Positions 25,952-47,524 of a stretch of DNA of 64,000 bases are shown in pieces (the stretch's first letter is position 1; each line of letters opens with the position of its first letter). The translations under genes were made by a program, and so were the position numbers. Below the pieces are notes generated by a model. That model searched no databases and was not told where the DNA came from. It saw nothing but the letters and a program-made list of their open reading frames with translations. Origin of the DNA: a virus; IMG/VR virus record IMGVR_UViG_2565956771_000001, positions 24-64,023 of that record; one strand, written 5' to 3'.

Positions 25952-26004
25952 TTCAGCTTAAACAATGAACCCGCTCCGGCGGGTTTTTGCATTCTGGAGG
26001 GCGC

Positions 26005-29889: not shown

Positions 29890-30215
29890 GTTCTGCCTTA
29901 AGGATCTGGTCTTCGTCGGGGGTGCTGGAGTTCGATACGAGTGTCGCCACATACAGGATTGTTTTATCTGTTCTGGTTTCTTATTCGTCGGGCCCAGCAG
30001 GAACTCGAGAGTTTTCGGTGCTGGGTTGCAATACAAGCAACTCGATATGCTTTTTTTTGCCGATAAATAACGATACCTCGCAAGTTTCTGAAAATAGACA
30101 GTTGGAGTGCGAGATGGGTCAGGATGTGGTTTATACACGAAACTTCCTGAAAGGCAGCCCGTCTGGGTCTTTTTCATCCGCAACAATGCGGCTAATAGTT
30201 GCGAGGTGGGGGTGA
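29886..30215 (+). CDS. Tail-tip accessory protein
   Basis: MSSALRIWSSSGVLEFDT...; 4-nt overlap with the J stop. Confidence 0.72.
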   Translation: MSSALRIWSSSGVLEFDTSVATYRIVLSVLVSYSSGPAGTREFSVLGCNTSNSICFFLPINNDTSQVSENRQLECEMGQDVVYTRNFLKGSPSGSFSSATMRLIVARWG

Positions 30216-30862: not shown

Positions 30863-30890
30863 ATTTAAGTCATCATAAGGATGCAAGCAC

Positions 30891-31421
30891 ATGGCAAGAC
30901 AAGAGATAAACCTTGGTACGGCCCCTACTGGTGTAGGCGGGGATACCACTCGTACGGCTGGCGTCAAGATCAACGCCATGACAGATGAGATATATAAGAA
31001 CTTCTATCAGAGGTCGAATATTCTCGCTGATGTTGCTGATTTAAACGGCCTTCCGAACGGCGGTATTATCGAGACAAAAACAAACTCAAACGGAACCTAT
31101 ACGAAATTTGCAGACGGCACTCTAATTTGCTTTAACACGTTTATCGTAACTGCGACCGTTAACCCTGGCGCGTCTGTGGTGCCATCTGTAGTTATGCCGT
31201 ACGCTTTTTCAGGCTCGCCTTATATTGCCAATTCTCTGATTTTTTATACGGCGGGGCAGGGCGCGCAGATATACTCATCCAAGCAAAACTATGGTTTGAT
31301 TGGGGTGTTCATAAACACTGGTGTGTCTGCATCTTCATCGTTCCCGAGCTTTACGACACTAGGAACTAATATTTCTTATTCCTATGAATATCGCTATTTG
31401 GCAATAGGGAGGTGGAAATAA
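30891..31421 (+). CDS. Short tail fibre (gp53-like C-terminal domain)
   Basis: MARQEINLGTAPTGVGGDTTR...; TNSNGTYTKFADGTLIC...AIGRWK. Confidence 0.8.
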   Translation: MARQEINLGTAPTGVGGDTTRTAGVKINAMTDEIYKNFYQRSNILADVADLNGLPNGGIIETKTNSNGTYTKFADGTLICFNTFIVTATVNPGASVVPSVVMPYAFSGSPYIANSLIFYTAGQGAQIYSSKQNYGLIGVFINTGVSASSSFPSFTTLGTNISYSYEYRYLAIGRWK

Positions 31422-31711
31422 TGATAATCAAATTATCGCCGCAGCGTCGGGATGATCAGCTGGTCGTCAGTAAGCGGAATGATGTGCTGACAATCAACGG
31501 TGAACGGTTCGACTTCCGAGAACTTCCTGAAGGTGCAGTCTTGCCAGCATCTGCTGTGGCTTGCGAATTCGTCGTCGGCGACGTTATGAGGCTCAACGGA
31601 GATCTGATCATAACCTTGCTCCTTCCGTGCGGACCTGAAGCAAGCAACTCAGCTTGCTTCCCTGCCGATATCGTCGCCCCACCGAACGGTAATGTGAGTC
31701 TTCCCCTATGA
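31421..31711 (+). CDS. Tail fibre assembly-associated protein
   Basis: MIIKLSPQRRDD...LTINGERFDF...GDLIITLLLP. Confidence 0.7.
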   Translation: MIIKLSPQRRDDQLVVSKRNDVLTINGERFDFRELPEGAVLPASAVACEFVVGDVMRLNGDLIITLLLPCGPEASNSACFPADIVAPPNGNVSLPL

Positions 31712-31962
31712 GTAATATCGATTTCAGCAAGATGGTTACCGCCGAGCAACGTCATGCGGATGAAGAGCGTGCCGCCCTTGAGTCCGTTCTGTCATCGCGT
31801 CGCGCTGCCTACCTGTCCGAGTCCGACCCGCTCAGGCTGGAAGCCGACTACGACGCGTTGAGCCGTGGCCTGGAGCCTGACTACACCGCCTGGCTGGCCT
31901 CAGTGGCCGCGATCAAGGCGCGTTTCCCTTTACCGGTGAGCGCTTCCGCCTTAGACGCCTAA
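31708..31962 (+). CDS. Tail fibre assembly-associated protein
   Basis: NIDFSKMVT...RRAAYLSESDPL...IKARFP. Confidence 0.7.
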   Translation: MSNIDFSKMVTAEQRHADEERAALESVLSSRRAAYLSESDPLRLEADYDALSRGLEPDYTAWLASVAAIKARFPLPVSASALDA

Positions 31963-32018
31963 AGCCAGCAGTACACCGCCACCCGCCTTGAGCGGGTTTT
32001 TTATTGCCTGGAGAAAAT

Positions 32019-32444
32019 ATGAACGCATCCGAGAAAGACCGGGACATTCTGACGCGCACGCTCTGGGGTGAGGCCCGCGGCGAAGGACTGGCCGGACAGA
32101 TCGCCGTGGCCTGGACCATCCGCAACCGCGTATTCGATGGAAAGGCCAAGTCCTGGTGGGGGGAGGGTTACGCCGGCGTTTGCCTGAAACCCTGGCAGTT
32201 CAGCTGCTGGAACCAGAACGACCCGAACCACGCGTACCTGAGTGGCGCCAAGCCGATTCCTGCAGCTCAGTTCGCCCAGGCGCAGCGTGCAGCTGACCAG
32301 GTGATGGCGGGCGTGGTGCCGGATCCAACCGGCGGCGCCACGCACTACTACGCAACCACGATGCCCAAGGCCCCGGCCTGGGCGGCGAAGGCCACGCAGA
32401 CGCTGCGCCTTGGTCACCATGTCTTCTTCAAGGATGTGCCGTGA
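32019..32444 (+). CDS. Endolysin, SleB-like cell wall hydrolase
   Basis: RTLWGEARGE...VAWTIRNR...WQFSCWN...DPTGGATHYY...HVFF. Confidence 0.9.
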   Translation: MNASEKDRDILTRTLWGEARGEGLAGQIAVAWTIRNRVFDGKAKSWWGEGYAGVCLKPWQFSCWNQNDPNHAYLSGAKPIPAAQFAQAQRAADQVMAGVVPDPTGGATHYYATTMPKAPAWAAKATQTLRLGHHVFFKDVP

Positions 32445-32971
32445 TGACGCCGATGCAGAAGCTGATCGGCCTGGGGCTGGCAATCCTGCTGGCGCTGGGC
32501 ATCGGCTTTGGCGGGGCATGGCAGGTTCAGGACTGGCGTCTGGGCAAGAAGCTGGCTGAGCGTATTGCGGAGCAGGGCGCCCGCCACCAGACGGAACTGG
32601 ATGCAATCACTGGCGAGGCCTGGCGTCAGCAGGCGGCCGAACAGGATAAGCGCCTGGCCACCGAGCAACAGCTCGCGATCCAGGACCAACACCACACCAA
32701 GGAATTATTCGATGTCCAACGCAACCAGGCTCGCCTGCGTGACCAGCTTGCTACTGCTGATGTCCGGCTGTCAGTCCTCCTCGCCGAGGATCCAGCCAGT
32801 AGCTGCAACGTGCCTACCGCCCCCGGCGCCGTCGGCGTGGTTCATGCAGCCCTTCGAGCCCCACTTGACCCAGCGCATGCGCAACGAATTGTCGCCATCA
32901 CCGACGACGGGGACAACGCCATAATCGCCTTGCGTGCGTGCCAGGCGTACGTCAGGGCTGTGGCTCCTTGA
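32441..32971 (+). CDS. Rz: i-spanin Rz
   Basis: N-terminal TM helix, coiled coil, ALRACQAYVR end. Confidence 0.88.
   Translation: MMTPMQKLIGLGLAILLALGIGFGGAWQVQDWRLGKKLAERIAEQGARHQTELDAITGEAWRQQAAEQDKRLATEQQLAIQDQHHTKELFDVQRNQARLRDQLATADVRLSVLLAEDPASSCNVPTAPGAVGVVHAALRAPLDPAHAQRIVAITDDGDNAIIALRACQAYVRAVAP
32712..32924 (+). CDS. Rz1: o-spanin Rz1 nested in Rz (+1 frame)
   Basis: MSNATRLACVTSLLLLMSGC lipobox followed by a Pro-rich segment. Confidence 0.82.
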   Translation: MSNATRLACVTSLLLLMSGCQSSSPRIQPVAATCLPPPAPSAWFMQPFEPHLTQRMRNELSPSPTTGTTP

Positions 32972-33604: not shown

Positions 33605-34076
33605 CATGTCTGAAAAAATACTCCCACATTTACTCCCACGGATATTCTAGATCTAGGTAGCTTTGGTATCTCAAGGGCTGTGAGCTAGCGACAGCTTTGG
33701 CATAAGCAGCAACGTGGGCGTTAGTTGAAATCAGGAACTTCGGGTCCTTTTTCGGTGCGCCCAGCATGGGCGCAATCTTGTGGGAGAAGATCCCGCCGTA
33801 ATGCAAAGCCAAGCAGCAGGCGAAAGATGTGATTCATCTCTGTCGTGGAGACGCAAAGCAAGCGGCCGAGATCTATAGCCCAATAGAGGTGGTCGCTGAA
33901 CCTATGACTGCCTGGAAGCCAGGCTACGTGTACGATCCGGGGGCCTTCGACACCAACTAGTGGTCTTGATCCTAGCTCTAGCATGTGATGGGCATACTGA
34001 TAGCCATTTACCATCGGCATGGTGGTCGTTATCCTGAAGACACGAGAACAACCGGTTGTTATTTCAGGGAAAGGAT

Positions 34077-36407
34077 ATGAAGGACGTCATTGGCTTTTTT
34101 GCTTACGCGTCAACGCCTGCCGAGATAGGGCAAACCATTGAGAGTGCTGTTGCTACCAGCTCAAGAACCAATACGAAAACGGTTGTGTCTACCTGGAGGG
34201 CCTTGGACATCGTCGGTCACTTCATCTCTGACGAAGTGCTGGCAAGTATTGATGCAGCCGATTTCCTGGTTGCTGACATCAGTGAGCTAAATTTCAACGT
34301 CACGTATGAAATTGGCTACGCCCTTGGTAAATCAAAGCGCGTTCTGCTTGTCAAAAACAAAAGCCTCCAGTCGCAGGGGTTGAAAATTTCCGATGTCGGT
34401 ATTTTTGACACCCTTGGGTTTCAGGAATACCAGAACTCGCCTGAGCTGAGCGGTTTCTTGAACAACGCGTCAGCCTGGAAATCGATTGACGTGTCTGCTG
34501 CGCTCAATCTCAAGGCACCGGTTTATTTGTTGGATACACCGCACAAAACCGACTGGTCGACCCGCATCATCTCGAGAATCAAAAAGGGCGGCTTCATCTT
34601 CCGTAACTTTGATCCAAACGAAACTCCCAGGCTTTCGGCCTATGACGCGATCAATCAGGTCGCACAATCCTATGGAGTTGTGGTTCCGTTGCTATCTACT
34701 GGGGCGACAGGAGCGGCCATCCACAACATGCGAGCCGCCTTCATTGCTGGTTTGGCCGATGGCATGGGCAAGGCGATGTGCATTCTTCAGTCAGGCGATG
34801 AGCCGGTCCCAGTGGATTATCGAGACTTTGTCCAGGTTACCTACCATCCGAATGATGTTAACCGCGCCATTGAGGTGTTTGCGTCCGATGTGACCCAAGC
34901 GTTTCAGCAGCTTGAGGCTTCTGGCGCGAAACCCGAGCGGTCATTTATCAAAAAACTCAACCTCGGCGCGACATCTGCCGAGAACGAAATGCGGGATCTC
35001 GAACGTTATTATCTGGAGACCGATCAGTTTCTGAAATCGTTGCGTGGCGAGGCGCATTTGGTCGTCGGTCGTAAGGGTTCTGGAAAATCAGCCATCTTTC
35101 TTCAAATCAGGGATGCCGAGCGCGACAAAAACCGTAACAAGAATATCGTTTTGGATTTGAAGCCAGACGGCTACAAACTCATCAAATTCAAAGAACGCAT
35201 CCTTCAGTTTCTTTCCGAAGGCACCTACCAGCACACAATCACGGCGTTTTGGGAGTACGTGCTACTGCTGGAAATTTGCTACAAGATTTTGGAAAAAGAC
35301 AAACAGCGTCACATCCATGATCATAGGCTGTATGAAGGCTATCGCGAGCTCGCCGAGCTGTATCGGGGAGAAGATTACGATTCAGAAGGCGATTTTTCTG
35401 AGCGCATGTCGATGCTCATGGAGAAAATCTACTCCGAATACCAATCCAAGTACGGTTCAACCAAAAGCGTCAATCTGAGCTCATTCGAAGTGACCGAACT
35501 CCTGTACAAGCATGACGTAAAGCAACTCAAACAAAAGCTGGGACGTTACCTTGAGAACAAGCAGGTGCTATGGCTTCTCTTCGACAATATTGATAATGGC
35601 TGGCCAACGTCCGGACTGAAGCATGAAGACCTGCTTATGGTCAGAGCTTTGATCGACGCTACGCGAAAAATTGAACGTCAGTTCAGCAGCGACAACATCA
35701 AGGTGCGCTCGGTAGTGTTCCTACGCAACGACGTCTACGAGCTGCTGGTCAAGGAGACGTCTGACCGCGGCAAGGAAGCCAGTGTGGTGCTGGATTGGAC
35801 GGATTCTGACTTGTTACGCGAGCTCGTTCGTTTGCGAATCGTGTCCAACGGTCTTGAAGAAGACCTGGACTTCAAGTCGGCCTGGCTGCGGCTTTTTGTA
35901 AGCCATTACAAGGGCGAGGAAACGTCTCAGTTTCTGATAGAGCGTTCCTTGATGAGACCACGCTTTCTCTTGAATCTGATCAATCATTGCAAGAGCTTTG
36001 CCATCAACCTCAACCACGAGATTATCGAAGGCAGCGACATTGAGAAAGGCATCGCGGCCTATTCAGCGGATCTGCTGCGCGATATTGGCTACGAGCTTCA
36101 GGACGTGTCCGATGAGACTGAAGGCCTTCTCTACGCTTTCGTCGCATCATCCGCCGACCTTTCTGAGCAGCAGGTGATGGATACTCTCCTTAAGTCTGGG
36201 CTTGATCAGCAGAAGGCGAGTCGCGCGGTAGATCTGCTGCTTTGGTATGGATTCCTGGGCATTCGAATCAACTCGGACGATCCTAAGTTTATTTATGATT
36301 TTAGCTACAACAAAGCGCTCATGGACGGGGTTAAGAAGAACTCGAACCAAGCGGTCAGTCTTGTAATTAACCAGGCGTTTTGGCCAGCATTGATGATCAA
36401 CCAATAA
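34077..36407 (+). CDS. P-loop ATPase (Sll1717/FunZ-like) with two N-terminal NDT/TIR-like domains
   Basis: ADFLVADISELNFNVTYEIGYALG (NDT-like); second copy near HNMRAAFIAGLADGMGK; Walker A VVGRKGSGKS; Walker B LLFDNID; C-terminal wHTH-like LLWYGFLG. Confidence 0.82.
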   Translation: MKDVIGFFAYASTPAEIGQTIESAVATSSRTNTKTVVSTWRALDIVGHFISDEVLASIDAADFLVADISELNFNVTYEIGYALGKSKRVLLVKNKSLQSQGLKISDVGIFDTLGFQEYQNSPELSGFLNNASAWKSIDVSAALNLKAPVYLLDTPHKTDWSTRIISRIKKGGFIFRNFDPNETPRLSAYDAINQVAQSYGVVVPLLSTGATGAAIHNMRAAFIAGLADGMGKAMCILQSGDEPVPVDYRDFVQVTYHPNDVNRAIEVFASDVTQAFQQLEASGAKPERSFIKKLNLGATSAENEMRDLERYYLETDQFLKSLRGEAHLVVGRKGSGKSAIFLQIRDAERDKNRNKNIVLDLKPDGYKLIKFKERILQFLSEGTYQHTITAFWEYVLLLEICYKILEKDKQRHIHDHRLYEGYRELAELYRGEDYDSEGDFSERMSMLMEKIYSEYQSKYGSTKSVNLSSFEVTELLYKHDVKQLKQKLGRYLENKQVLWLLFDNIDNGWPTSGLKHEDLLMVRALIDATRKIERQFSSDNIKVRSVVFLRNDVYELLVKETSDRGKEASVVLDWTDSDLLRELVRLRIVSNGLEEDLDFKSAWLRLFVSHYKGEETSQFLIERSLMRPRFLLNLINHCKSFAINLNHEIIEGSDIEKGIAAYSADLLRDIGYELQDVSDETEGLLYAFVASSADLSEQQVMDTLLKSGLDQQKASRAVDLLLWYGFLGIRINSDDPKFIYDFSYNKALMDGVKKNSNQAVSLVINQAFWPALMINQ

Positions 36408-36663: not shown

Positions 36664-37920
36664 GTGATGAAGTTATGCTTTGTCGTGATGGGGTATGGCA
36701 AGAAAACCGAGTATGAGTCTGGTCGCACGCTCGACCTGAATGCAACGTACGAAACGATTATCGAGCCCGCTGTCACCAGCCGCGGCTTACGCTGCGTTCG
36801 GGCTGACGAGATCATGCAGTCGGGACTTATCGACGTAAAAATGTACGACCTGCTGCTCAGGGCTGATCTGGTCATCGCCGATATTTCCACGGGAAACGTA
36901 AACGCCGTCTACGAACTGGGAGTACGTCACGCGCTGAGACCGAATTCGACCATCGTCATGAGCGAGGACAAGGGCAAGCTGTACTTTGACCTCAATCACA
37001 TCAGCACTTTCCAGTATTCGCATTTTGGTGAGGACATTCTTGCACGTGAGGCGCGGCGCGCCACGGAGGCCCTGGGTAACCTGATTGAGGCCGTGATGGC
37101 CGCCCAGGCTATCGACAGTCCAGTTTATACGTTCCTGCCCAGGTTGCGCTCGCCGAGTATGTCGGATGAAGAGTTTGAAGAGTTGGTCGATGAAGCAGAA
37201 GCCGCTCAACAACGACTTTTTCATCACATGCGCGAAGGTGAAAAGTTGATGCGGCAGAGTCAACATCATGCTGCCAGCGTAGAGTTTGCTGCTGCAAGGG
37301 ATATGAAGCCTGGTGAGCCTGATATTTTGCAAAAGCTTGCACTGAGCACCTATAAGTCAAAGATTCCTAATGAGCTCGCCGCGCTGCGAGCTGCCATGGA
37401 AGTGCTTAGCCCCCTCAATCCTGAAAGCTCGAATGACCCCGAGACTGTTGGCATTGCGGGAGCGATCGTCAAGCGAATCTGGCTGCTTGAGGGTGATAGA
37501 GCTTCACTTGACTCCGCCATTGCTTTTTATCGCCGAGGCTTTGAGGTCAAGCGTGACTATTACAACGGCGAAAACCTTGCGCTGTGCTTCGAGTTTCGAG
37601 CGCAAATACAAACAGAAGACGCGGAGAGAATGTTCGACTTCATGTGCGCGCAGAAAATCCGTGAAGCGATTTTGAGGATTCTGTTGCCTGTGCTGGAGTC
37701 TCCCGATTTCATTGAACGCAGCGACAGACGCTGGGTGTATGCGACTTTGGCCAACTGCTATTTTGCGGTCGGAGACGCCACGCAAGCCGAGACGTTCGAG
37801 AATCATTTTATGGGAGCCTTCATTGCTCAATGGGAGGTTGATACTTATCAGGCGGGCAAAAGTCACGTGTTAGCAACCCGAGAGAAACGGCTCGCAGCGG
37901 TGGCCCCGTCTCAGCACTGA
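36664..37920 (+). CDS. NDT-like domain plus DUF4071/TRAF-binding-type TPR protein
   Basis: LCFVVMGYG...ADLVIADISTGNVNAVYELGVRHALR; helical repeats DPETVGIAGAIVKR, YYNGENLA. Confidence 0.8.
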   Translation: MMKLCFVVMGYGKKTEYESGRTLDLNATYETIIEPAVTSRGLRCVRADEIMQSGLIDVKMYDLLLRADLVIADISTGNVNAVYELGVRHALRPNSTIVMSEDKGKLYFDLNHISTFQYSHFGEDILAREARRATEALGNLIEAVMAAQAIDSPVYTFLPRLRSPSMSDEEFEELVDEAEAAQQRLFHHMREGEKLMRQSQHHAASVEFAAARDMKPGEPDILQKLALSTYKSKIPNELAALRAAMEVLSPLNPESSNDPETVGIAGAIVKRIWLLEGDRASLDSAIAFYRRGFEVKRDYYNGENLALCFEFRAQIQTEDAERMFDFMCAQKIREAILRILLPVLESPDFIERSDRRWVYATLANCYFAVGDATQAETFENHFMGAFIAQWEVDTYQAGKSHVLATREKRLAAVAPSQH

Positions 37921-37975
37921 CCGTTTGAGGTTATCGACAATGCTCAACCAACGACTTCAAGAAAGGAACAGCGAA

Positions 37976-38455
37976 ATGGGGTTGCCCAGAACATTCGTCG
38001 GCTTCAGCAGCACAGACCGACACATGTATGAACTGATGGGGGCGTGGAAGAAAAACACTCGGATCGATTTTGATTTCGCCGACTGCCAGTTGAACATGGC
38101 GTTGAACTCGGAAGACGAGGATTACATCAAGCGCAAATGCCGGGAAAGGATTGATATGGCCGGCACCTTCGCACTGCTGATTGGCAGGGACACGCGTTCG
38201 AAACACAAATACGTGCGTTGGGAGATACAGGTAGCGATAGAGAAGGGGTGCAAGCTCATCGGCATCAACCTGGACGGAGCCCGCCAGGTGAATGCTGATC
38301 TTTGCCCTCCCATCCTGCAGGACGTTGGGGCAGTGTTCGTCCCGTATTCCCCTGCCATTATTGCTCATGCCCTGGCGAACCCCACGGCAAGTGAGCGTGG
38401 CAACTATTTCTATCCGCCAGCCGTGTATCAAAAACTCGGCTATGAGGTTCCTTGA
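37976..38455 (+). CDS. TIR-domain protein (ThsB/DUF1863-like)
   Basis: RTFVGFSSTD...EDEDYIKRKCRERI...LLIGRDT...YVRWEIQVA (catalytic Glu). Confidence 0.88.
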   Translation: MGLPRTFVGFSSTDRHMYELMGAWKKNTRIDFDFADCQLNMALNSEDEDYIKRKCRERIDMAGTFALLIGRDTRSKHKYVRWEIQVAIEKGCKLIGINLDGARQVNADLCPPILQDVGAVFVPYSPAIIAHALANPTASERGNYFYPPAVYQKLGYEVP

Positions 38456-39318
38456 TGCAGATTTCTGATTTCCCTGGTCTCTATCAGGCCGCCGATGAGC
38501 TGTCGGGTTCCGCTCAGAAGCATTTTCTTGCCGCGCTGCTCACTAACCTGGCGCTGTTGGTGGTGGCCGCAGTCGTCTCGGTTATCAATTATCCTCACTG
38601 GGGTGCAGCGGCCCTGCAGGCGGCTCTTTTAGCCGGCGCATTAGCCAGCTCTGTGTATTTGGCGACACAGCGGCCTGAGCGGCTTTGGTATTCGGGGCGT
38701 GCCGTCGCCGAATCAATCAAAACCATGGTGTGGCGCTACGTGTCCCGCGCAGAGCCTTTTCATGAAAGCGACGAGGCGGCCAAGAAGCATTTGCTGGCAA
38801 AGCTTACGCAAGTGGTTGAGCAAAACCCAGGCGTGTCGAACAAGCTGCTCACGCATCTGCCGGCCCAGCAAATTACGTACAAGATGAAGCTGATGAGGGC
38901 CGGTGATTTCGAAACCCGGCGCGATACGTACATCGAATCCCGGATCAACGACCAACTGGGATGGTATTCACGTAAAGCTAACTTCAACGCCCAGGCCGCC
39001 AAGTATTTCTTCATTACATTGATCGCCGTTAACGCCATCGCTTTTGGATGTGCGCTGATCAAGATCGCCAACGTGGAATACCAATACTTTCCGACTGACG
39101 TGCTGATCGCTGTTGCAGCAAGTATTCTGACGTGGATGCAGGCAAAACGCTTCACTGAGCTATCGGCGTCTTACGCACTGACTGCGCATGAGATTACGCT
39201 TATACGTGAACAGGCCGATGAGCTGAAAAAAGATGAGCATTTGTCGACATTTGTAGGTGACGCTGAGAACGCATTTTCTCGTGAGCACACTCAGTGGGAG
39301 GCAAGGAAGGACAACTGA
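38455..39318 (+). CDS. SLATT/DUF4231 membrane effector (two 2-TM modules)
   Basis: Four hydrophobic segments; WYSGRAVAESIK; RINDQLGWY; ENAFSREHTQW; start overlaps the TIR stop. Confidence 0.87.
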   Translation: MQISDFPGLYQAADELSGSAQKHFLAALLTNLALLVVAAVVSVINYPHWGAAALQAALLAGALASSVYLATQRPERLWYSGRAVAESIKTMVWRYVSRAEPFHESDEAAKKHLLAKLTQVVEQNPGVSNKLLTHLPAQQITYKMKLMRAGDFETRRDTYIESRINDQLGWYSRKANFNAQAAKYFFITLIAVNAIAFGCALIKIANVEYQYFPTDVLIAVAASILTWMQAKRFTELSASYALTAHEITLIREQADELKKDEHLSTFVGDAENAFSREHTQWEARKDN

Positions 39319-39395
39319 CAGCGCCTCGCGTGCGAACGACTACTGGCAGGAGTAGGGCGCTAGTTTCAGAAGCTAAACACCTTCCTGCCGGCAGC

Positions 39396-39866
39396 TTATT
39401 TAAGCTCGTCGGAGAGCTTCGACCAGGGTACGGTTTTGATCTTGTGTTCCGATACCCATTTAGGCTCAGCTGCGCCGAACTGCTTACCGGAATGCACAGC
39501 TACAACCTTCTTGCCAAGCTCTAGGCTCTTTTCTACCTCCCATTTCACCCACTTGCTCTGGGCAGTGTCCTTGGAAATGAAGACCACAGTGATAGATGAG
39601 CGGTTGATGCGCTCGGCGATCTTGCGCTTGATGTACTCCGCCTGCTCACTGTCGTAGGGTTCGCGGACTGAATGATCATTGAACTCGATGTCATTGTTAT
39701 CGTTTTTTGCCTGTCCCCTGAGCAGATTGACCTCAGCCATGTCCTCAGTGGCAAAACTGATGAACACGTTGCGCTTGCCCTCATTTAGAGCAGCCTTGGC
39801 TTTTTGCTCCAGTGACCTGACATCACCGAGTCGGCTCCATCCACCTGTGCTGCTACCGCCCATCAT
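39396..39866 (-). CDS. TIR-domain protein (ThsB-like) with a Gly-rich N-terminal tail
   Basis: (M)MGGSSTGGWS...; NVFISFATED...AEYIKRKIAERINRSSITVVFIS...WVKWEVEKS; GAGGG RBS inside the end of the queC-like gene. Confidence 0.88.
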   Translation of the reverse strand: MMGGSSTGGWSRLGDVRSLEQKAKAALNEGKRNVFISFATEDMAEVNLLRGQAKNDNNDIEFNDHSVREPYDSEQAEYIKRKIAERINRSSITVVFISKDTAQSKWVKWEVEKSLELGKKVVAVHSGKQFGAAEPKWVSEHKIKTVPWSKLSDELK

Positions 39867-40455
39867 TGGCACCCTCAAATTTGAATTCGTTGCAGGCGAT
39901 ACAGTTGCCGCACGGCTGTTCTTCACCCAGGTGGCACGAGTAGGTCTGAGAGATGCCTTTCTCGGCTGCCAGCGTCACGACGTCAGGTTTGGTGAACGAT
40001 GAGAGCGGTGCAAGCACCTTGATATTCCGGCCCATGCATAGAGTTATCATGCGCTCAGCCTCCTCGAGGAATCCGGAGGTCTGATCAGGAAAAAGGCTGG
40101 TGCTTTCGTGAAGCAATCCGATGGAGATCGCATCGGCGTTTTTCTGATGGGCGTAAGCGGCGGCGGTCAACAGAAAAAGCATGTTCCGGCCGGGAGTGAA
40201 GGCGTCGTCAATGATGTGCAAGGTCGGGTCGGTGAGTCCCGAGCGAATCAACCTGCCAAATCCCGACAGACCGGCAATTTCGGGCTCAGGAAGTCCAAGC
40301 TTCTGCATGGCCAGCTTGCAGGCTGCGAGCTCTCGGTCGCGGGCGCGTTGACCATAATCTACAAAGAGTGGAAATATCTGCAGGCCTTGCTCCTGTGCCA
40401 ACTTGGCGACGAGCGTAGAGTCTAGGCCTCCGGAAACCAGTGTCACGATACTCAT
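39853..40455 (-). CDS. QueC-like PP-loop ATPase (7-cyano-7-deazaguanine synthase family; Cap9/QatC-like)
   Basis: SGGLDS, FVDYGQR, PGRNMLFL, zinc site SCHLGEEQPCGNCIAC. Confidence 0.92.
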   Translation of the reverse strand: MSIVTLVSGGLDSTLVAKLAQEQGLQIFPLFVDYGQRARDRELAACKLAMQKLGLPEPEIAGLSGFGRLIRSGLTDPTLHIIDDAFTPGRNMLFLLTAAAYAHQKNADAISIGLLHESTSLFPDQTSGFLEEAERMITLCMGRNIKVLAPLSSFTKPDVVTLAAEKGISQTYSCHLGEEQPCGNCIACNEFKFEGANDGR

Positions 40456-41150
40456 ACTAAAACAGCCTCCTGCTTGCGATTTGCAACGCGCATAACGATC
40501 CATATGGCCCAATCCAAAAGACCAACCGGGCAATCCATTTCCCGGGCATGGTCACGAAGCCTGTCTTCATGCCTGCCATACTGATTCAATCCGGATATGG
40601 ATACCTGAGTGCCTGAATATATCCCCTGAGCAGACATGTAATTGAGCACGTGCCGATCAAGGATTGCCAAGTCATAAGTAACCCCGCAATTGCGCAAAAA
40701 CATACTGGCTTGCTTGGGCCCCATACCGGATGCATGGGCCACTAGCCACGCGCGTACATCACTGACGTCACCACTGATCAGCGCCTTGAGTGAGCCGCCA
40801 ATGCTTGCTACGGCCGCCCACGTGGACGCTAAGTGACCGGCTTTTGCCCTGGGAAACCTGTAAGTGCGCATTTTGCCGTCGACAACGAGAGGGGTTCTGA
40901 GCACTTCAAACAATTTCTCGGCAAGGTGCTCGCTGTGTTGTTTGTTGTGATAAAGATAGCCACGTTCATCGATGGCATCGGCGGCTGCCATAGCGAGCGG
41001 GTAGGGGACCTGGCTACTGAGAATGCAGCAAGAAAGCTCCCACCATAGATGACGCTCGTCAGACACTGCGCCGGCTTCGATGCGTGTGCGAATATCTGGA
41101 CAGACCGCAGCGACAGCTCTGCAGAGCGCTTCAGCGCTATAAGTGGTCAT
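40452..41150 (-). CDS. OGG-like N-glycosylase/AP lyase (HhH; Cap11-like)
   Basis: ELSCCILSSQ, YRFPRAKA, GMGPKQASMFLRN, AILDRHVL, DWAIW. Confidence 0.85.
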   Translation of the reverse strand: MTTYSAEALCRAVAAVCPDIRTRIEAGAVSDERHLWWELSCCILSSQVPYPLAMAAADAIDERGYLYHNKQHSEHLAEKLFEVLRTPLVVDGKMRTYRFPRAKAGHLASTWAAVASIGGSLKALISGDVSDVRAWLVAHASGMGPKQASMFLRNCGVTYDLAILDRHVLNYMSAQGIYSGTQVSISGLNQYGRHEDRLRDHAREMDCPVGLLDWAIWIVMRVANRKQEAVLV

Positions 41151-42529
41151 AGAAAAATTCCTGGGAATAGCGATCGAAGCTCGGCGCTTTTCATGCCGGT
41201 AACTCCCATGGCGAACGGTTCTTCGCGGCCTTTCGAATACATGTCACGCATGATTCGGCCAAACTCCGCATAATACTCTAGATTGTGGAACGCAACCTTG
41301 CCTGCGTAGCCTATGTTGTTGTTTGCCATCACCCTATCCATAAATTCACTTCGGATCCTTTTCGTTTTGAAAAAGTCGAAGTGTTGGAAGTGGTGAAGCC
41401 GCTCAAGCTCAGGATCTACCGCAAACCGACACCACTCAAGACCGTCGAACGTGTCCGCGCCAGCGGCCGCCAGTAGTGCAATGCTCCACGGGTTTCCAGT
41501 GCCCAGTAGATGAATGGGTTGATAATAGGGCAGCTTGTCCAGTTCATCCCTGATATGTCTGACAGTCAATGCACGCTGCGCAAGGCCCGCACCCAGTTCC
41601 CTTTCCGGAATGGCGATGATAGGCGGTTGCAGGTGCTCGGATATCGCCCTGACGATCCGAGGAAGTCTTTCGAGCCCCTTAGGGGTCTGCTTGACGTGAA
41701 TGATGGGTAGCACCGGAGCAGAGGTGTGCTTGGCGTCGCGCTCCACTGCTTTTATGACCTGCCTGACCGCCACTTCGAATTTGTCACTGGGGGTCATGTT
41801 GTCAAAACAGAACGCCCAATCGTGTGGCGTATCGGTTAGCGCGCGCTTCAGGTTCGATGGCTTCCACTGTTTGTCATTCAGGCGGTAAGCCTCATAATTG
41901 CCCGAGTCGATGAGAACAAAACCGCCTAGGTCTCGATAGGTCGTTATTTCAGCAATCATCTTGTGTCGCGATTCAGAATTAACCAGGTCATAGGCAGAAA
42001 CAAGAATCGAGCGCGTCGGATACACCGTTAATGCTTCCAACGCTTCTACGGGATCGAACTGTGTCTCGTGTGACGAAACAGACATGAAGACATTAGGAAG
42101 GGCAAGCGCACCGTCAGCTATCGTGGCTAACCGGACGGGCTTACCCTGAGGAGGTACAACGAGCCCGATTTTCTTCTGCAGCAACTGAAAGCATGAGTGA
42201 TCTGCTTCGCCCTGCCATGACCGGAAATCAACACTGCTGAAGTGACCATATGGGTACGGCGGATCACTGTCATCCAAAATGAGAGGGACGACCTTCTTTT
42301 GATATTTTTCTGCCAAGCTCAACTCGCCAGTGATGGTGTGCTTGTGAGCAAATGAGGAATATAGAGCAACGACGCATTTCGCTTCTTTGAGATTTTCTGT
42401 AATCGCGACACTGAAGTCGCCAACTATCAAATCGTCTAGCCACACGCTCCAGGACGCGGAGAGGAGATCGCGAACCTTCAGCGCTGTCTTGCTATTTTCT
42501 TTGGCATATATGATATAGACGTCCGCCAT
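41147..42529 (-). CDS. TIR domain fused to a tRNA-guanine transglycosylase (TGT)-like barrel (Cap10-like)
   Basis: N-terminal DVYIIYA...VWLD...VVALYS...GEL; TGT motifs LIDSGNYE, FCFD, PIIH, IHLLGTG, ADTFDG. Confidence 0.82.
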   Translation of the reverse strand: MADVYIIYAKENSKTALKVRDLLSASWSVWLDDLIVGDFSVAITENLKEAKCVVALYSSFAHKHTITGELSLAEKYQKKVVPLILDDSDPPYPYGHFSSVDFRSWQGEADHSCFQLLQKKIGLVVPPQGKPVRLATIADGALALPNVFMSVSSHETQFDPVEALEALTVYPTRSILVSAYDLVNSESRHKMIAEITTYRDLGGFVLIDSGNYEAYRLNDKQWKPSNLKRALTDTPHDWAFCFDNMTPSDKFEVAVRQVIKAVERDAKHTSAPVLPIIHVKQTPKGLERLPRIVRAISEHLQPPIIAIPERELGAGLAQRALTVRHIRDELDKLPYYQPIHLLGTGNPWSIALLAAAGADTFDGLEWCRFAVDPELERLHHFQHFDFFKTKRIRSEFMDRVMANNNIGYAGKVAFHNLEYYAEFGRIMRDMYSKGREEPFAMGVTGMKSAELRSLFPGIFL

Positions 42530-42602
42530 GGATCGATCTGGCCTCAGCTGGTTACATTCCGTTGCATGACCCTGCGGGCGATGCCGATTATTGTTTTATC
42601 TT

Positions 42603-43757
42603 TCAGTGAGTGGCAGCGGCTTCGCCAGCAGCCCAGACTGCGAGGTACATTGCTGTCGTGAAGTCATCCGTTGTCTCTGTTGCAACGGTTAATACACTCG
42701 CGGCAGTAGTGCGCTCGTGGAGTGTGATGATCGGAATTGATCGGGCTCGGTCTTCTGCAATTCGTGCCAGGGACTCCACCGACAACTCATCATTTATTAC
42801 CAAGGTCGCATCCGTATTCCAGCCAGCGTTTGCCACTTCAATCTGTGGACATGTCACATCAACACCCAGTTCGCGCAATGCAAACCGGGCTTCTTCCATC
42901 GTGTATCGCTGTCCTAGTGAATCAACACCACCTTCAAGACGAACCCTGCCACCTCTCCAAGATGAGATAGGCTGACGTTGCTTGAGGATGGATTCATCAA
43001 ACTCGAACGCACGGGTATCGCAATAGACAGATACCGACCGTGACGCCAGATCTGCAGCTTGGTGAGGCGGCAGTTCGCCTTGCGCCCAATGAACCGCAAA
43101 TACGGCAGTAAATATGTCACCTGTTCCGATTTTAAAAACACTGCTGGAACGATAAGCCGGTATGTGTGAAATCTTGCCTACACCCTCGTAAACTGAGGCG
43201 CCACGTGCACCTTGTTTGATCACGACAACCTGTGCGCGTTGTTTTTTCAGCAGGTGTTGCGCCGCTAAGTGCAACTCATCGATTCCAGTTATCTGGCGCA
43301 CTTCCAGTTCATTCATTACTAGGGCCAATTCTCTGGCCGTCGACCCATTGGCTCCAAACGATGGCGGGTTATGCCAGGTTTGCGGGTCGTATACGGCCCG
43401 ATTCGCCGTGACCACCGCATCTCCCTCAAGAAAGCCGAAGCGCAAAACGGCGTTCCCAGTCACCGATATCGAGTTTTCGCGGTTGATGGACGCGCGGGGT
43501 GGCTCAATATGGGGCGAAGAAAGGGGGTGGAAATACGCAAAGACTATTGGCGATGGCCTGGTAGCGGCATGCGTGATGATTCCCTGCGACTCCAGCGAAA
43601 CCAATGCGGAGCGATCAGCGGGGGAGGCATAAGTGGAAAACTCGACACCCGAAGCCAGTGCGTTGGCGGCCAAGGCAGCGCGACCTCCAGAGCCCAGCGT
43701 AGAGTCCCAGAACGGTACATCACATAACTCGCGATATAGACCACCAACGATGTGCAT
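42603..43757 (-). CDS. PfkB/ribokinase-family kinase with a C-terminal degenerate NDT-like domain
   Basis: MHIVGG...LGSGGRAA; VVIKQGARG; FKIGTGDIFTA; tail LGQRYTMEEARFALRELGVDVTCP. Confidence 0.82.
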   Translation of the reverse strand: MHIVGGLYRELCDVPFWDSTLGSGGRAALAANALASGVEFSTYASPADRSALVSLESQGIITHAATRPSPIVFAYFHPLSSPHIEPPRASINRENSISVTGNAVLRFGFLEGDAVVTANRAVYDPQTWHNPPSFGANGSTARELALVMNELEVRQITGIDELHLAAQHLLKKQRAQVVVIKQGARGASVYEGVGKISHIPAYRSSSVFKIGTGDIFTAVFAVHWAQGELPPHQAADLASRSVSVYCDTRAFEFDESILKQRQPISSWRGGRVRLEGGVDSLGQRYTMEEARFALRELGVDVTCPQIEVANAGWNTDATLVINDELSVESLARIAEDRARSIPIITLHERTTAASVLTVATETTDDFTTAMYLAVWAAGEAAATH

Positions 43758-44155: not shown

Positions 44156-45886
44156 TTAAGCTTTTTCGAGCTTAAGAAAGGGATTATCGGTAGGTACGGC
44201 CGCAGCTTTGAACAATAGTGCTGGTTCTTCTAGCAAATAGCCTTTGAGTTTTGCCTTCTTACGGGGACCTTCGACCTGACAAGCCCAGATATTTAGACCG
44301 TCGTCACGCTTCCTGTGGACCTTCAATTTTTCGAATTGCTTCTGCACCCAACGCCATTCTTCAGTCTCTTGATTGGCACCCTGAGAGATACCAGGGAACT
44401 CCTGCGCATAGCGTTGGAAGAGACCAGGCGTGACCAGAAATACGCTGCCACTCACCGTGTGGATTTTGGCCTTGCTGTCATTGATGACCAGTTTGTGGCT
44501 CAGGATGCTTTCCTTGACCCAATTCAAGAATGCCTGGCCAGGGTTATTCGAAGGAGGATTTGAGATTTCGAGAGCGTTTGCTGACGGTGCATCACGTGCC
44601 TCGGGTTCTGCCATTTCGAACATATCCAGCAACGCTCCTAAGTAGTCGGCATCTTCCGTGGCTACGGGATCTGGCTGTGATGGGCTTTGATCTGATCCTC
44701 TACTGACAACCTTGGGTGCTAGTGGCGATGCCGGAGCGTCAGTTGAGTGGTCATCGACTGCGAAGCTTACCGTTCCGCTGAAAGCTTCAGGTCGGTCTTC
44801 GTTCGCCCAAATCAACGCCGGTTGAAGGCGCAGAAAGGTAAAGCTCTGCTGCCAGTTTCCCTGCGTGACAAGCGCAGTCCAGATGGCTTTGCCTTCCGGC
44901 GTGGACTCAACCAATCCATGCGATTGCAGTTCGTCGAACACAGCAATGTTGGACGACGGAATGCCTTCTATCGCTTGTGAAAGCAAATAAGCTCGGAGTT
45001 TGTCCGTGACTGCCTTACTAACCAACCACAGGGAGTCCTGGGTCAGCCATCCCGCGGCCCCTGGCTGGTTGAGTTTCAGCTCGTGCTGAACGAGATGACG
45101 CAGTCCGCTGATCAAGTGATGTTGCAGCGTATGAATCGGCGCTTGCAACGCCTTGCTTGGGTTGCCACCGATGTTCTGTGCGGTGGAGACCCGGTCGGCT
45201 TGAATCACCAACTCGCCCAGCACGCCGGCGCGTTCATACTGGCCGGCTAGGACATACAGCAGACTCGCCCACAGCGGCGGAAAGCCACTCAGCCAATCGA
45301 GGATCGGTCGGTTGAGAATCTGGGTGTAGAGCAAGCCTGCGGCGGCGCCGTGCAGGTGATAATCGCGACCTTTGAGGTAGCGAAAGCGGTAGGGCTGATC
45401 CAGGGGACCCTGCCAAGGATGCCAAACACGGCCATCCTGGCGTTCGACTAGCAGGTCCACGGCGATCTTGCCGATGTCATGCAGAAGGGCACCATAAGCA
45501 ATACCCGCCGACCAGGCATCGGTCTGGGCGGCTTGGTCTTCGGGCGCAGCGCCGGTTGGCAGCAGATACGACTGACGCAGTTTCAAACTGCAAGCGACCA
45601 GTTCCAGTCCATGGTCGAGCATGCCGCCAAGGTAAGCATGGTGGTGCGTCTCGCTGGCAGGCAGTTGCTGGACCTGTTCGGCGTAGCGATGGATCGGATT
45701 TATATAGAGCTGGGTGAACTGCGCGTGGGAGAGGGCGGTGTACTGCCAGATGCGGTCGAGCAACTGGCGGCGGTGTTCCGCGGCTAACAAACTGTGAGCC
45801 GACTCGATGGGCAGGTAACCTTCGGCGACGTTGACGGTCGGTGGCGGAGGGGGCTTCTGCCTTTTGCGGCGAAACAGGCTGAGCAT
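44156..45886 (-). CDS. traI: MobH-family relaxase (TraI_2)
   Basis: LPASETHHHAYLGGMLDHGLE and LLHDIGK (HD domain); VWHPWQGPL. Confidence 0.93.
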   Translation of the reverse strand: MLSLFRRKRQKPPPPPTVNVAEGYLPIESAHSLLAAEHRRQLLDRIWQYTALSHAQFTQLYINPIHRYAEQVQQLPASETHHHAYLGGMLDHGLELVACSLKLRQSYLLPTGAAPEDQAAQTDAWSAGIAYGALLHDIGKIAVDLLVERQDGRVWHPWQGPLDQPYRFRYLKGRDYHLHGAAAGLLYTQILNRPILDWLSGFPPLWASLLYVLAGQYERAGVLGELVIQADRVSTAQNIGGNPSKALQAPIHTLQHHLISGLRHLVQHELKLNQPGAAGWLTQDSLWLVSKAVTDKLRAYLLSQAIEGIPSSNIAVFDELQSHGLVESTPEGKAIWTALVTQGNWQQSFTFLRLQPALIWANEDRPEAFSGTVSFAVDDHSTDAPASPLAPKVVSRGSDQSPSQPDPVATEDADYLGALLDMFEMAEPEARDAPSANALEISNPPSNNPGQAFLNWVKESILSHKLVINDSKAKIHTVSGSVFLVTPGLFQRYAQEFPGISQGANQETEEWRWVQKQFEKLKVHRKRDDGLNIWACQVEGPRKKAKLKGYLLEEPALLFKAAAVPTDNPFLKLEKA

Positions 45887-46433: not shown

Positions 46434-47393
46434 TCAAGCTCCATCGTTCATGCATAGTGAGTCATCCAAGACCGCTTGCTTCAGTTGCTGCTCCAGGTTG
46501 AGTACATACTCCGAGGCGCTTCGGGCCTGGCCACTGGCGCGGAAGATCGCGCGTTTGTCAGCCTTGAGCAGGCCGAGCCAGGAGTCAATGTAGCCCTCGT
46601 GCCTAAGTTCTCCCTGTATACCGGTGTAGGCACATAAAAACGCAGCGCCCATCTCGGCGATCAACTCCTCAAACGCGTAGCCTGGCGAGCCGAACGGACA
46701 GGCTGACGTCATGCCTTCGCGCTGCAACCGAGAGTGATGCCCGGTCCAGTGCGTCAGCTCATGAAGTGCCGTGGCGTAGTACCCGCCTTCATCGTGAAAT
46801 TGTGCTTTTGTCGGCAGTTGGATGAGATCCCTGATCGGGTGGTAAAAGGCTTCGTCGGCAGGCCGATGAACGATGCGTGCACCTGAACTTAATAGCAGAT
46901 TTTCCGCGGCGCTGTTGGGCTGGAAGGGATCACTCTGTTCCGTCTCGAGCAGGGTTTCATTGAGCATTTCGAGCCCCTCCGTTTGCTCGATGTTGAACAG
47001 AAAATGTGTCCTGAGAATGCCGAAGTGAGCGACCTTGGGTTGACCGTTTTCATCGAGTACGGGTTGGCCTGACTCGGTCTGTTCCTCGCGCTCCATCGGC
47101 TTGTAGAGCACCGCCAGAGTGCTGTGCTCACCCTTACGAATGTGCCCACCGGTCTTTTTGGCTTGGTTGAAGGTCAGCCAACGATCTTGAGTGAACCCCT
47201 GCAACCTGGCCTCGGCCCAGAGCAGCGGTAAATTGATGCCCGAATACGGACGTCGTGTGATGGCGTTGACGGGGTAGGGTTGATGACCGATGTAAGCGGA
47301 GCCACTTGAGGACCAGGGTTTGATCCAGGGAGCAACGCCTTGGTCTAACGCGGTAACGATCTTGTCAGTTACGTCTTGGTAGATATCGCGCAT
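46434..47393 (-). CDS. ardC: ArdC antirestriction protein (DUF1738 plus zincin-like domain)
   Basis: DIYQDVTDKI...APWIKPW; YSGINL; WLTFNQA; ALHELTHWTGH; YAFEELIAE. Confidence 0.92.
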   Translation of the reverse strand: MRDIYQDVTDKIVTALDQGVAPWIKPWSSSGSAYIGHQPYPVNAITRRPYSGINLPLLWAEARLQGFTQDRWLTFNQAKKTGGHIRKGEHSTLAVLYKPMEREEQTESGQPVLDENGQPKVAHFGILRTHFLFNIEQTEGLEMLNETLLETEQSDPFQPNSAAENLLLSSGARIVHRPADEAFYHPIRDLIQLPTKAQFHDEGGYYATALHELTHWTGHHSRLQREGMTSACPFGSPGYAFEELIAEMGAAFLCAYTGIQGELRHEGYIDSWLGLLKADKRAIFRASGQARSASEYVLNLEQQLKQAVLDDSLCMNDGA

Positions 47394-47524
47394 GGCAATT
47401 TCCTCGAGAGAAAACGGAGGAACGCCTTGCCCGTCGGGGGAGGGTTCCCCGGTTGGGTGATGGGTTGGATTGATGCAGGTCTTGCATGCCGCCCGAATGT
47501 GGAGGTGGGCGCCGCCCATTGCGC

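What the first reader, a model, noticed from the sequence alone, without database searches (positions are those of the whole stretch)
39396..43757. Type IV CBASS-like QueC/TGT/OGG module with the cyclase replaced by a TIR enzyme: candidate deazaguanylation-controlled Thoeris-like system
Seen: five translationally coupled or adjacent - strand genes (PfkB-NDT, TIR-TGT, OGG-like glycosylase, QueC-like, TIR); no nucleotidyltransferase (CD-NTase) motif in any ORF of the island. Established: QueC (Cap9), TGT (Cap10) and OGG (Cap11) are the ancillary trio that defines type IV CBASS, and a QueC-like enzyme is part of QatABCD. ThsB-type TIRs make NAD-derived immune signals. Inference: the deazaguanine-handling trio here licenses or senses through a TIR signal generator instead of a cyclase. 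I do not recall a named system with this composition. No folE/queD/queE genes are present, so the deazaguanine precursor would come from the host queuosine pathway.
Basis: partly seen in the sequence, partly recalled or inferred. Interest (0 to 1): 0.95.

Follow-up and report, generated by a model that had tools for sequence, protein, structure and literature searches.

The report
TIR defence system with deazaguanine-tagging helper genes
This is a real, widely conserved anti-phage gene cluster in which the QueC/TGT/OGG helper genes known from type IV CBASS serve a TIR (Thoeris-type) signalling enzyme instead of a nucleotide cyclase; a 2025 preprint had already noted such operons from sequence alone, and none has been tested at the bench.

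Summary
**Observation: confirmed.** Five minus-strand genes (39396-43757) encode, in order:
- a PfkB kinase with an NDT-like tail
- a TIR-Cap10 (TGT) fusion
- Cap11 (OGG)
- Cap9 (QueC)
- a ThsB-type TIR

The last four are joined by overlapping start and stop codons. No CD-NTase is present.

**Conservation.**
- The Cap10-Cap11-Cap9-ThsB core recurs in 27 species from at least five phyla.
- The TIR downstream of Cap9 begins M-G-G in 27 of 27 loci. This is the N-terminal acceptor motif of type IV CBASS cyclases.
- It also carries a ~30-residue extension that other ThsB proteins lack.
- The residues that are catalytic in Cap9, Cap10, Cap11 and TIR enzymes are conserved in all four parts.

**Effectors.** 25 of 27 loci carry SLATT and/or TPR-S effectors, as in Thoeris types VII and VIII. 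About half have no second ThsB. The convergent plus-strand genes (36664-39318) therefore belong to the same system.

**Interpretation: supported. Novelty: lower than claimed.** Yirmiya et al. (bioRxiv, Dec 2025, Fig. 6G/S10B) already describe Thoeris operons with cap9/10/11, without experiments.

**Not mentioned in that text:**
- the invariant MGG tail
- the TIR fused to Cap10, with catalytic Glu in 117 of 117 homologues
- the kinase gene, present in 21 of 27 loci

The parts
42603..43757 (-). PfkB (ribokinase-fold) kinase fused to a C-terminal NDT-like Rossmannoid domain. It is an accessory gene of the module, and the true start is the ATG at 43757.
   Evidence: Kinase domain:
- PF00294, 3.3e-12.
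- AF2 model pLDDT 92, with ribokinase and pseudouridine-kinase fold matches.
- Kinase motifs GSGG, NExE and GTGD are invariant in 19 homologues.

C-terminal domain:
- Z 12-12.7 to NDT structures.

Conservation and start:
- Present directly upstream of TIR-Cap10 in 21 of 27 loci.
- All homologues start MHI(V/A)GG.
41147..42529 (-). TIR-Cap10 fusion: an N-terminal TIR_2 domain (residues 1-110) and a TGT-family Cap10 domain (residues ~140-460).
   Evidence: - PF13676, 2.9e-11; PADLOC TGT, 1.6e-22.
- A family profile matches Cap10 9NTN at 2.2e-17 over 240 residues.
- Conserved in 116-117 of 117 full-length homologues: D208/S209 (116 each), D243, H340 and D362 (117 each). These align to Cap10 D73/S74, D122, H226 and D248. 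TIR Glu69 is also 117 of 117.
40452..41150 (-). Cap11, an OGG-like HhH glycosylase.
   Evidence: - PF22175, 2.4e-24; NF002305, 7.9e-29.
- The GPKQAS Lys and the D-x-H Asp are conserved in at least 95% of 24 homologues.
- ATGA overlaps on both sides.
39853..40455 (-). Cap9, a QueC-family enzyme and the predicted N-terminal deazaguanylase. The true start is the ATG at 40455.
   Evidence: - PF06508, 1.7e-39. It scores below the equivalog cut-off for canonical QueC (127.8 against 150.3 bits).
- Matches Cap9 9NTO at 6.3e-14.
- SGGLDS, RN, FPDQ and the Cys cluster are conserved.
- Host genomes carry a separate canonical QueC.
39396..39863 (-). ThsB-type TIR (called ThsBn here), with an N-terminal Gly-rich tail and a helix ahead of the TIR core. 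It is the predicted signal generator and the substrate of Cap9.
   Evidence: - PF08937, 3e-25; PADLOC ThsB models.
- M1, G2, G3 and the catalytic W-x-x-W-E are invariant in 24 aligned homologues.
- Solved ThsB structures align only from residue 31 onward.
39840..39863 (-). Codons for M-G-G-S-S-T-G-G, the predicted acceptor tail. Gly2 would be exposed after Met removal.
   Evidence: - 27 of 27 loci begin MGG.
- 0 of 10 second-ThsB homologues do.
- The motif matches M(G/S)G(G/S)GG of type IV CBASS CD-NTases (Wassarman 2025).
38452..39318 (+). SLATT_3-SLATT_1 membrane effector, ThsH-like as in type VII Thoeris.
   Evidence: - PF18184, 1.4e-43; PF18181, 1.2e-36.
- SLATT genes lie beside the core in 16 of 27 loci, in some directly downstream of ThsBn with no other ThsB (L014, L026).
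37925..38455 (+). A second ThsB TIR with no N-terminal extension. The likely start is the ATG at 37976 (MGLPRTF).
   Evidence: - PADLOC ThsB1, 2.2e-40.
- Homologues start at MGLPRTF.
- A full-length second ThsB is present in 12 of 27 loci.
36664..37920 (+). NDT/CMP-hydrolase-like domain fused to a TPR-S sensor: a ThsI-like effector, as in type VIII Thoeris.
   Evidence: - PF20308 TPR-S, 1.8e-20.
- The N-terminal domain keeps an NDT-type Y-E-L-G.
- ThsI-like or other TPR-S proteins occur in 20 of 27 loci.
34056..36407 (+). NDT-like domains fused to an Sll1717-family P-loop ATPase. It is a neighbour and probably a separate defence gene.
   Evidence: - NF047389, 2.1e-95.
- Found next to the core only in L001 and L006.

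Best explanation
The region 36664-43757 is one composite Thoeris-type anti-phage system carried as cargo of an integrative conjugative element.

**Inferred mechanism, by analogy with type IV CBASS**
1. Cap9 uses ATP and host-made 7-carboxy-7-deazaguanine to attach a 7-amido-7-deazaguanine base to Gly2 of the small TIR protein ThsBn.
2. The Cap10 domain of TIR-Cap10 binds that modified tail in its TGT-like pocket. It holds or primes ThsBn, and may transfer the base onto a still unknown ribosyl target.
3. Cap11 may reverse that transfer.
4. On infection, ThsBn makes an NAD-derived signal, probably a cADPR isomer.
5. The signal activates the neighbouring SLATT membrane effector and the NDT/TPR-S nucleotide hydrolase, which stops phage growth.

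**What is shown and what is inferred**
- Shown here: gene content, order, coupling, conserved motifs and co-occurrence.
- Inferred: every biochemical step.
- Open: the roles of the fused TIR domain and of the PfkB/NDT-like kinase.
For: **Domain assignments**
-.

**Conservation**
- Cap10-Cap11-Cap9-ThsBn order kept in 27 species, from Pseudomonadota to Acidobacteriota, a Bacillota MAG and a Micrarchaeota MAG; 25 of 27 Cap10 genes carry the TIR fusion.
- Also found on 13 Rhizobium/Agrobacterium/Neorhizobium plasmids.

**ThsBn as the Cap9 substrate**
- ThsBn begins MGG in 27 of 27 loci, followed by a conserved amphipathic helix. The second ThsB never does.
- This mirrors the M(G/S)G(G/S)GG tail plus helix alpha-1 of CdnD, which Cap9 modifies and Cap10 binds (paper).

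**Catalytic residues**
- Conserved in Cap9, Cap10, Cap11 and both TIR domains.

**Effectors**
- SLATT or TPR-S effectors flank 25 of 27 loci.
- In 13 loci ThsBn is the only stand-alone ThsB, often directly followed by the effector.

**No cyclase**
- No CD-NTase in the record or near any locus.

**Independent support**
- Yirmiya 2025 report AF3 models of ThsB with Cap10 (ipTM 0.79) and Cap9 (0.62).
Against: - No experiment exists for any such operon. The preprint tested none.
- Cap10 Lys154 has no aligned Lys here. It aligns to an invariant Pro, with an invariant His three residues later.
- In this window the effectors sit on the opposite strand with their own ThsB, so they could act alone.
- Two MAGs with the system showed no canonical QueC. 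Either the MAGs are incomplete or the base has another source.
- The signal molecule is only guessed from the effector type.
Confidence: 0.7

Rival explanations
1. Two independent systems lie side by side. One is an ordinary type VII/VIII Thoeris (ThsI-like, ThsB, SLATT) on the plus strand. The other is a self-contained five-gene module on the minus strand, in which the TIR domains are NAD-depleting effectors rather than signal generators.
For: - The plus-strand genes have their own ThsB and form a convergent unit.
- TIR Glu69 of TIR-Cap10 is invariant, so that domain could be an NADase.
- Two loci (L016, L020) show no recognised effector.
Against: - 13 of 27 loci have no full-length second ThsB.
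- The effector often follows ThsBn directly on the same strand (L011, L012, L014, L022-L024, L026).
- Effector type varies while the TPR-S or SLATT sensor is kept. This is the pattern of signal-dependent effectors.
- ThsBn matches ThsB signal-generator models, not effector TIRs.
Confidence: 0.15
2. The module modifies nucleic acid with a 7-deazaguanine base, either for restriction-like discrimination as in Dpd or for tRNA modification. It does not modify a protein.
For: - QueC, TGT and a DNA glycosylase are all nucleic-acid base enzymes.
- RefSeq calls them 7-cyano-7-deazaguanine synthase and DNA lyase.
Against: - The nearest solved relative of the TGT domain is Cap10 (2.2e-17), against 7e-6 for archaeosine TGT.
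- Only the PADLOC models named QueC and TGT match. No Dpd or Qat component was found.
- The invariant MGG tail on the adjacent TIR is unexplained by this reading.
- The system is sporadic: 3 of 400 Pseudomonas species.
Confidence: 0.05
3. It is a housekeeping or salvage operon for queuosine and nucleoside metabolism that happens to sit in a mobile element.
For: A kinase, an NDT-like domain, QueC and TGT could be read as salvage enzymes.
Against: - TIR fusions, SLATT and TPR-S neighbours, and a location on an ICE or plasmid.
- Host genomes already hold a canonical QueC that scores above the equivalog cut-off, while this one does not.
Confidence: 0.03

Closest known systems
Thoeris operons with cap9, cap10 and cap11 (Yirmiya et al., bioRxiv 10.64898/2025.12.03.692087, Fig. 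6G and S10B)
   Same: A TIR signal generator and an effector, together with Cap9, Cap10 and Cap11 and without a cyclase. The proposed mechanism is the same, by analogy with type IV CBASS.
   Different: - That work gives one sentence, one figure panel and AF3 models, and no experiment.
- Its text does not mention the MGG tail, a TIR fused to Cap10 or a kinase gene.
- I could not see the figure, so I cannot say whether those features are drawn there.
Type IV CBASS (CD-NTase with Cap9, Cap10 and Cap11; Wassarman et al. 2025)
   Same: - The Cap9, Cap10 and Cap11 homologues have conserved active-site residues.
- The signalling enzyme has an N-terminal Gly-rich tail beginning MGG, followed by a helix.
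   Different: - The signalling enzyme is a 155-residue ThsB TIR, not a CD-NTase.
- Cap10 carries an extra TIR domain.
- A PfkB/NDT-like gene is added.
- The effectors are SLATT or TPR-S types.
Thoeris types VII (ThsB with SLATT ThsH) and VIII (ThsB with CMP-hydrolase/TPR ThsI), which signal by cADPR
   Same: The plus-strand genes have these architectures, and the same effector families accompany the Cap module in other loci.
   Different: - Those are two-gene systems without ancillary genes.
- I could not compare sequences with the validated proteins, which are listed by IMG identifiers only.
Type II CBASS, and Thoeris operons with Cap2/Cap3 (ubiquitin-like conjugation of the signalling enzyme)
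   Same: The logic is the same: ancillary enzymes covalently prime the signalling enzyme at one terminus.
   Different: The chemistry and the terminus differ: C-terminal Gly with E1/E2-like enzymes there, against N-terminal Gly with QueC/TGT-like enzymes here.
QatABCD
   Same: A QueC-family enzyme is proposed to deazaguanylate a partner protein's N-terminal Gly.
   Different: - No QatA (KAP ATPase), QatB or QatD (TatD) is present.
- Cap9 here is the short, QueC-like form, not the extended QatC form.

Membership tests
Type IV CBASS | A CD-NTase (SMODS) signalling enzyme in the operon | tested here: not met
   - No nucleotidyltransferase family in any ORF.
- PF18144 is absent from the 82.7-kb record.
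- It is absent from 12 of 15 host genomes. The three hits lie on other contigs or hundreds of kb away.
Type IV CBASS | Cap9: a QueC-family enzyme with an SxGxDS loop and a Zn-binding Cys cluster | tested here: met
Type IV CBASS | Cap10: a TGT-family protein with base-reading D73/S74, D122 and K154, and the catalytic H226/D248 | tested here: met
   - D208/S209, D243, H340 and D362 align to those residues and are conserved in 116-117 of 117 homologues.
- K154 aligns to Pro275, so that single residue is not matched.
Type IV CBASS | N-terminal M(G/S)G(G/S)GG acceptor tail on the signalling enzyme | tested here: met
   MGG is invariant in 27 of 27 loci, but on a TIR protein.
Type IV CBASS | Cap9-dependent NDG modification of the signalling enzyme | not testable with these tools
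   This needs mass spectrometry.
Thoeris | A ThsB-type TIR with catalytic Glu | tested here: met
   PF08937 at 3e-25, PADLOC ThsB models, an invariant W-x-x-W-E, and solved ThsB structures as best matches.
Thoeris | An adjacent effector with a signal-sensing domain | tested here: met
   SLATT and TPR-S proteins are present in the window and in 25 of 27 loci.
Thoeris | A phage-triggered NAD-derived signal that activates the effector, and anti-phage activity | not testable with these tools
   This needs phage assays and LC-MS.
Thoeris with cap9/10/11 (Yirmiya 2025) | TIR, effector, cap9, cap10 and cap11 together | tested here: met
   All five are present.
QatABCD | QatA ATPase, QatB and QatD (TatD nuclease) together with the QueC-like QatC | tested here: not met
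   No TatD or KAP ATPase family in the scanned ORFs, and no PADLOC Qat models matched.
Dpd 7-deazaguanine DNA modification | DpdA with DpdB/DpdC and further Dpd genes | tested here: not met
   Only the PADLOC models named QueC and TGT matched, and no Dpd models did. The TGT domain is closest to Cap10.

The most novel reading that the evidence does not exclude
The extra parts of this variant are a catalytically intact TIR fused to Cap10 and a ribokinase-fold kinase with an NDT-like domain. They suggest that the long-sought acceptor of Cap10-mediated transfer is a small ribosyl compound rather than nucleic acid.

On this reading:
- The deazaguanine on the N-terminus of ThsBn is ribosylated or ADP-ribosylated at N9, with NAD, ADP-ribose or a nucleoside as donor.
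- The kinase/NDT-like protein then processes it.
- Cap11 reverses the step.

The result would be a protein-linked nucleotide that switches TIR signalling on.
Probability: 0.12. Interest if true: 0.85.

Novelty: new member of a known kind. Interest (0 to 1): 0.6.

Why it matters
Protein deazaguanylation was discovered in 2025, and its downstream step, what Cap10 transfers the base to, is still unknown.

- **Wider reach.** This family shows the same machinery coupled to TIR signalling. It is at least as common as the 49 type IV CBASS operons counted by Wassarman et al.: more than 800 TIR-Cap10 protein clusters were found.
- **A simpler substrate.** ThsBn is a 155-residue TIR protein.
- **Two extra conserved enzymes.** The fused TIR and the PfkB/NDT-like kinase both act on ribosyl compounds. 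They give concrete, testable candidates for the missing step.
- **Shared regulation.** The family is a further case of CBASS and Thoeris sharing regulatory modules.

Tried and rejected
- **Kinase C-terminal domain.** It has no Pfam family. Only the fold search placed it near NDTs.
- **Upstream genes in loci without the kinase.** I tested whether the small genes upstream of Cap10 in L021, L025 and L026 are related to the NDT-like tail. hhalign found nothing.
- **Older literature.** I looked for the Aravind-group papers of 2015 and 2020, which may mention QueC/TGT with TIR. They are not held, so I could not check them.
- **Other papers.** Searches for QueC/TGT/TIR/SLATT and QueC with TIR domain found nothing beyond the Yirmiya preprint and reviews.
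- **Preprint supplements.** They list no cap9/10 entries in the stored parts.
- **Deposited phages.** No deposited phage genome carries TIR-Cap10.
- **Host queuosine pathway.** The window's own record is an 82.7-kb virus-type record, so the pathway could not be searched there. I used relatives instead.
Full report
**What is there**

Between 39396 and 43757 the minus strand carries five genes.

- **Kinase, 43757-42603.** A 384-residue protein with a PfkB kinase domain.
  - All homologues begin MHI(V/A)GG, so the ATG at 43757 is the start, not the one at 43802.
- **TIR-Cap10, 42529-41147.** It follows after 73 bases.
  - It has a TIR_2 domain at residues 4-108 and a TGT-family domain at about residues 140-460.
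  - That second domain matches the PADLOC model named TGT at 1.6e-22.
- **Cap11, 41150-40452.** An OGG-type glycosylase.
- **Cap9, 40455-39853.** A QueC-family protein.
- **ThsBn, 39863-39396.** A ThsB-type TIR.

Cap10/Cap11 and Cap11/Cap9 share ATGA overlaps. The ThsB start sits within the last Cap9 codons, behind a GAGGG.

**The kinase**

- A model built on 19 homologues (pLDDT 92) shows a complete ribokinase fold plus a separate C-terminal alpha/beta domain.
- Modelled alone (pLDDT 86), that domain is closest to nucleoside 2-deoxyribosyltransferases: Z 12.0-12.7, rmsd 2.3-2.8 Å over about 110 residues.
- Receiver and TIR domains score lower, at Z 9-11.
- The margin is modest, so "NDT-like" is a statement about fold. 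No Pfam family matches the domain.
- The kinase motifs (GSGG, NExE, GTGD with Asp214) are invariant, as are several acidic residues of the tail (E288, E289, E348, D365).
- Both halves therefore look functional.

**Comparison with type IV CBASS**

Wassarman et al. showed three things:
- Cap9 links 7-amido-7-deazaguanine to Gly2 of the cyclase.
- The cyclase always starts M(G/S)G(G/S)GG.
- Cap10 binds that modified tail through D73, S74, D122 and K154, with H226/D248 as the catalytic pair.

What I find here:
- **Acceptor tail.** The TIR after Cap9 reads M-G-G-S-S-T-G-G, followed by a conserved amphipathic helix, before the TIR core begins at about residue 31.
  - Solved ThsB structures align only from residue 31.
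  - In 27 related loci the protein begins MGG every time, down to 46% identity.
  - None of the ten homologues of the second ThsB has either the tail or the extension.
- **Cap10 residues.** A family profile aligns to Cap10 (9NTN) at 2.2e-17.
  - It places D208/S209, D243, H340 and D362 on D73/S74, D122, H226 and D248.
  - D243, H340 and D362 are invariant in all 117 full-length homologues. D208 and S209 are conserved in 116.
  - K154 aligns to an invariant Pro, with an invariant His three residues on, so that one residue is not matched.
- **Cap9 and Cap11.** Cap9 keeps SGGLDS, RN, the PD motif and the Cys cluster. Cap11 keeps the HhH Lys and Asp.
- **TIR domains.** ThsBn has an invariant W-x-x-W-E. 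The TIR fused to Cap10 keeps its Glu69 in 117 of 117 homologues.

**No cyclase**

- None of the scanned ORFs has a nucleotidyltransferase family.
- PF18144 finds nothing in the whole 82.7-kb record.
- Of 15 host genomes carrying the system, 12 have no SMODS protein at all.
- The three hits lie on other contigs or hundreds of kilobases away.
- Unknown genes flanking the core in other loci are effectors, transposases or unrelated proteins.

**Where the effectors are**

Across the 27 loci:
- **Core.** Cap10-Cap11-Cap9-ThsBn is constant, and the Cap10 gene carries the TIR fusion in 25 of 27 loci.
- **Kinase.** It precedes the core in 21 loci.
- **Effectors.** 25 loci have, within about 3 kb, a SLATT protein (16 loci) and/or an NDT-like/TPR-S protein or another TPR-S fusion (20 loci).
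  - L010 has an alpha/beta hydrolase fused to TPR-S.
  - L011 has a trypsin-like peptidase fused to TPR-S.
- **Arrangement.** Position and strand vary.
- **Second ThsB.** Thirteen loci have no full-length second ThsB.
- **Direct adjacency.** In L011, L012, L014, L022-L024 and L026 the effector follows ThsBn directly.

These are the effector types of Thoeris VII (SLATT, ThsH) and VIII (CMP hydrolase-TPR, ThsI). Both respond to cADPR according to Yirmiya et al.. I conclude that the convergent plus-strand genes of the window belong to the same system: the ThsI-like gene (36664-37920), the second ThsB (37925-38455) and the SLATT gene (38452-39318). The 783-residue NDT/Sll1717 ATPase (34056-36407) accompanies the core only in L001 and L006 and is probably separate.

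**Setting**

- The island has about 52% G+C, against about 60% in the flanks.
- It lies between a lambda-like prophage end (tail tip protein, Rz) and ICE genes (TraI_2 relaxase, ArdC, TraG, TraU, TraC).
- A near-identical copy is in Pseudomonas californiensis (L001, 98%).
- The family occurs in 3 of 400 Pseudomonas species searched.
- It is also on 13 mostly conjugative Rhizobium/Agrobacterium/Neorhizobium plasmids, where RefSeq gives only generic names.
- It is in no deposited phage genome.
- More than 800 TIR-Cap10 protein clusters and more than 500 kinase clusters exist in public data, often on the same contigs.

**Precursor supply**

- Pseudomonas, Halomonas and Desulfuromonadales hosts carry a canonical QueC (over 200 bits) besides the Cap9-like gene (110-130 bits).
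- Two MAGs showed only the Cap9-like gene. That may be incompleteness.

**What is known already**

Yirmiya et al. [quoted passage not shown] They also state that AF3 predicts the TIR to bind Cap10 (ipTM 0.79) and Cap9 (0.62).
- None of their 30 tested operons is of this kind.
- Their text does not mention the MGG tail, a TIR-Cap10 fusion or a kinase.
- I found no other paper on this composition.
- I could not read the 2015 and 2020 Aravind-group surveys.

**Verdict**

The composition, however, is already on record as a bioinformatic observation.

What this analysis adds:
- the 27 of 27 acceptor motif;
- conservation of the catalytic residues in every part;
- the absence of a cyclase from whole host genomes;
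- the assignment of the SLATT and TPR-S effectors to the same system;
- two conserved extra parts whose roles are open.

All biochemical steps remain inferred.

Noticed in passing
34056-36407 (+): A 783-residue protein with NDT-like N-terminal domains and an Sll1717-family P-loop ATPase, with a weak match to an NCBIfam anti-phage model. It accompanies the core only in L001 and L006, so it is probably a separate defence gene.
   Followed up: partly
L010:13835-15253 and L011:7143-8744: TPR-S sensor domains fused to an alpha/beta hydrolase (L010) and to a trypsin-like peptidase (L011), next to the Cap module. The effector domains swap while the sensor is kept.
   Followed up: partly
L021:8761-9812: In a Desulfobacterales MAG the kinase is replaced by an 8xMP membrane protein and a small protein with a weak NDT match, directly upstream of TIR-Cap10. 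hhalign found no relation to the NDT-like tail of the kinase.
   Followed up: partly
L027:7409-10513: The TIR-Cap10 gene is split by an insertion that carries an rve-family integrase. This copy is likely inactivated.
   Followed up: no
L008:8774-9908: The kinase gene matches in two frames that meet near 9175. This is a frameshift or an assembly error in a MAG.
   Followed up: no
L025 and L026: Two Acidobacteriota loci have Cap10 without the TIR domain. They still have Cap11, Cap9, an MGG-ThsB and SLATT, so the fusion is not obligatory.
   Followed up: partly
Genomes of L023 (Micrarchaeota MAG) and L024 (Syntrophomonadaceae MAG): Only the Cap9-like QueC was found and no canonical QueC. Either the MAGs are incomplete or the deazaguanine base comes from elsewhere.
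   Followed up: no
46434-47519 (-): An ArdC-type anti-restriction protein (ArdcN plus a zincin peptidase domain) in the ICE backbone, next to the TraI_2 relaxase at 44156-45886.
   Followed up: no
25987-32971: A lambda-like tail tip protein (1300 residues) and an Rz-type lysis gene end a prophage that abuts the ICE cargo. The whole record is classed as a virus record, although the island sits on the ICE side.
   Followed up: no
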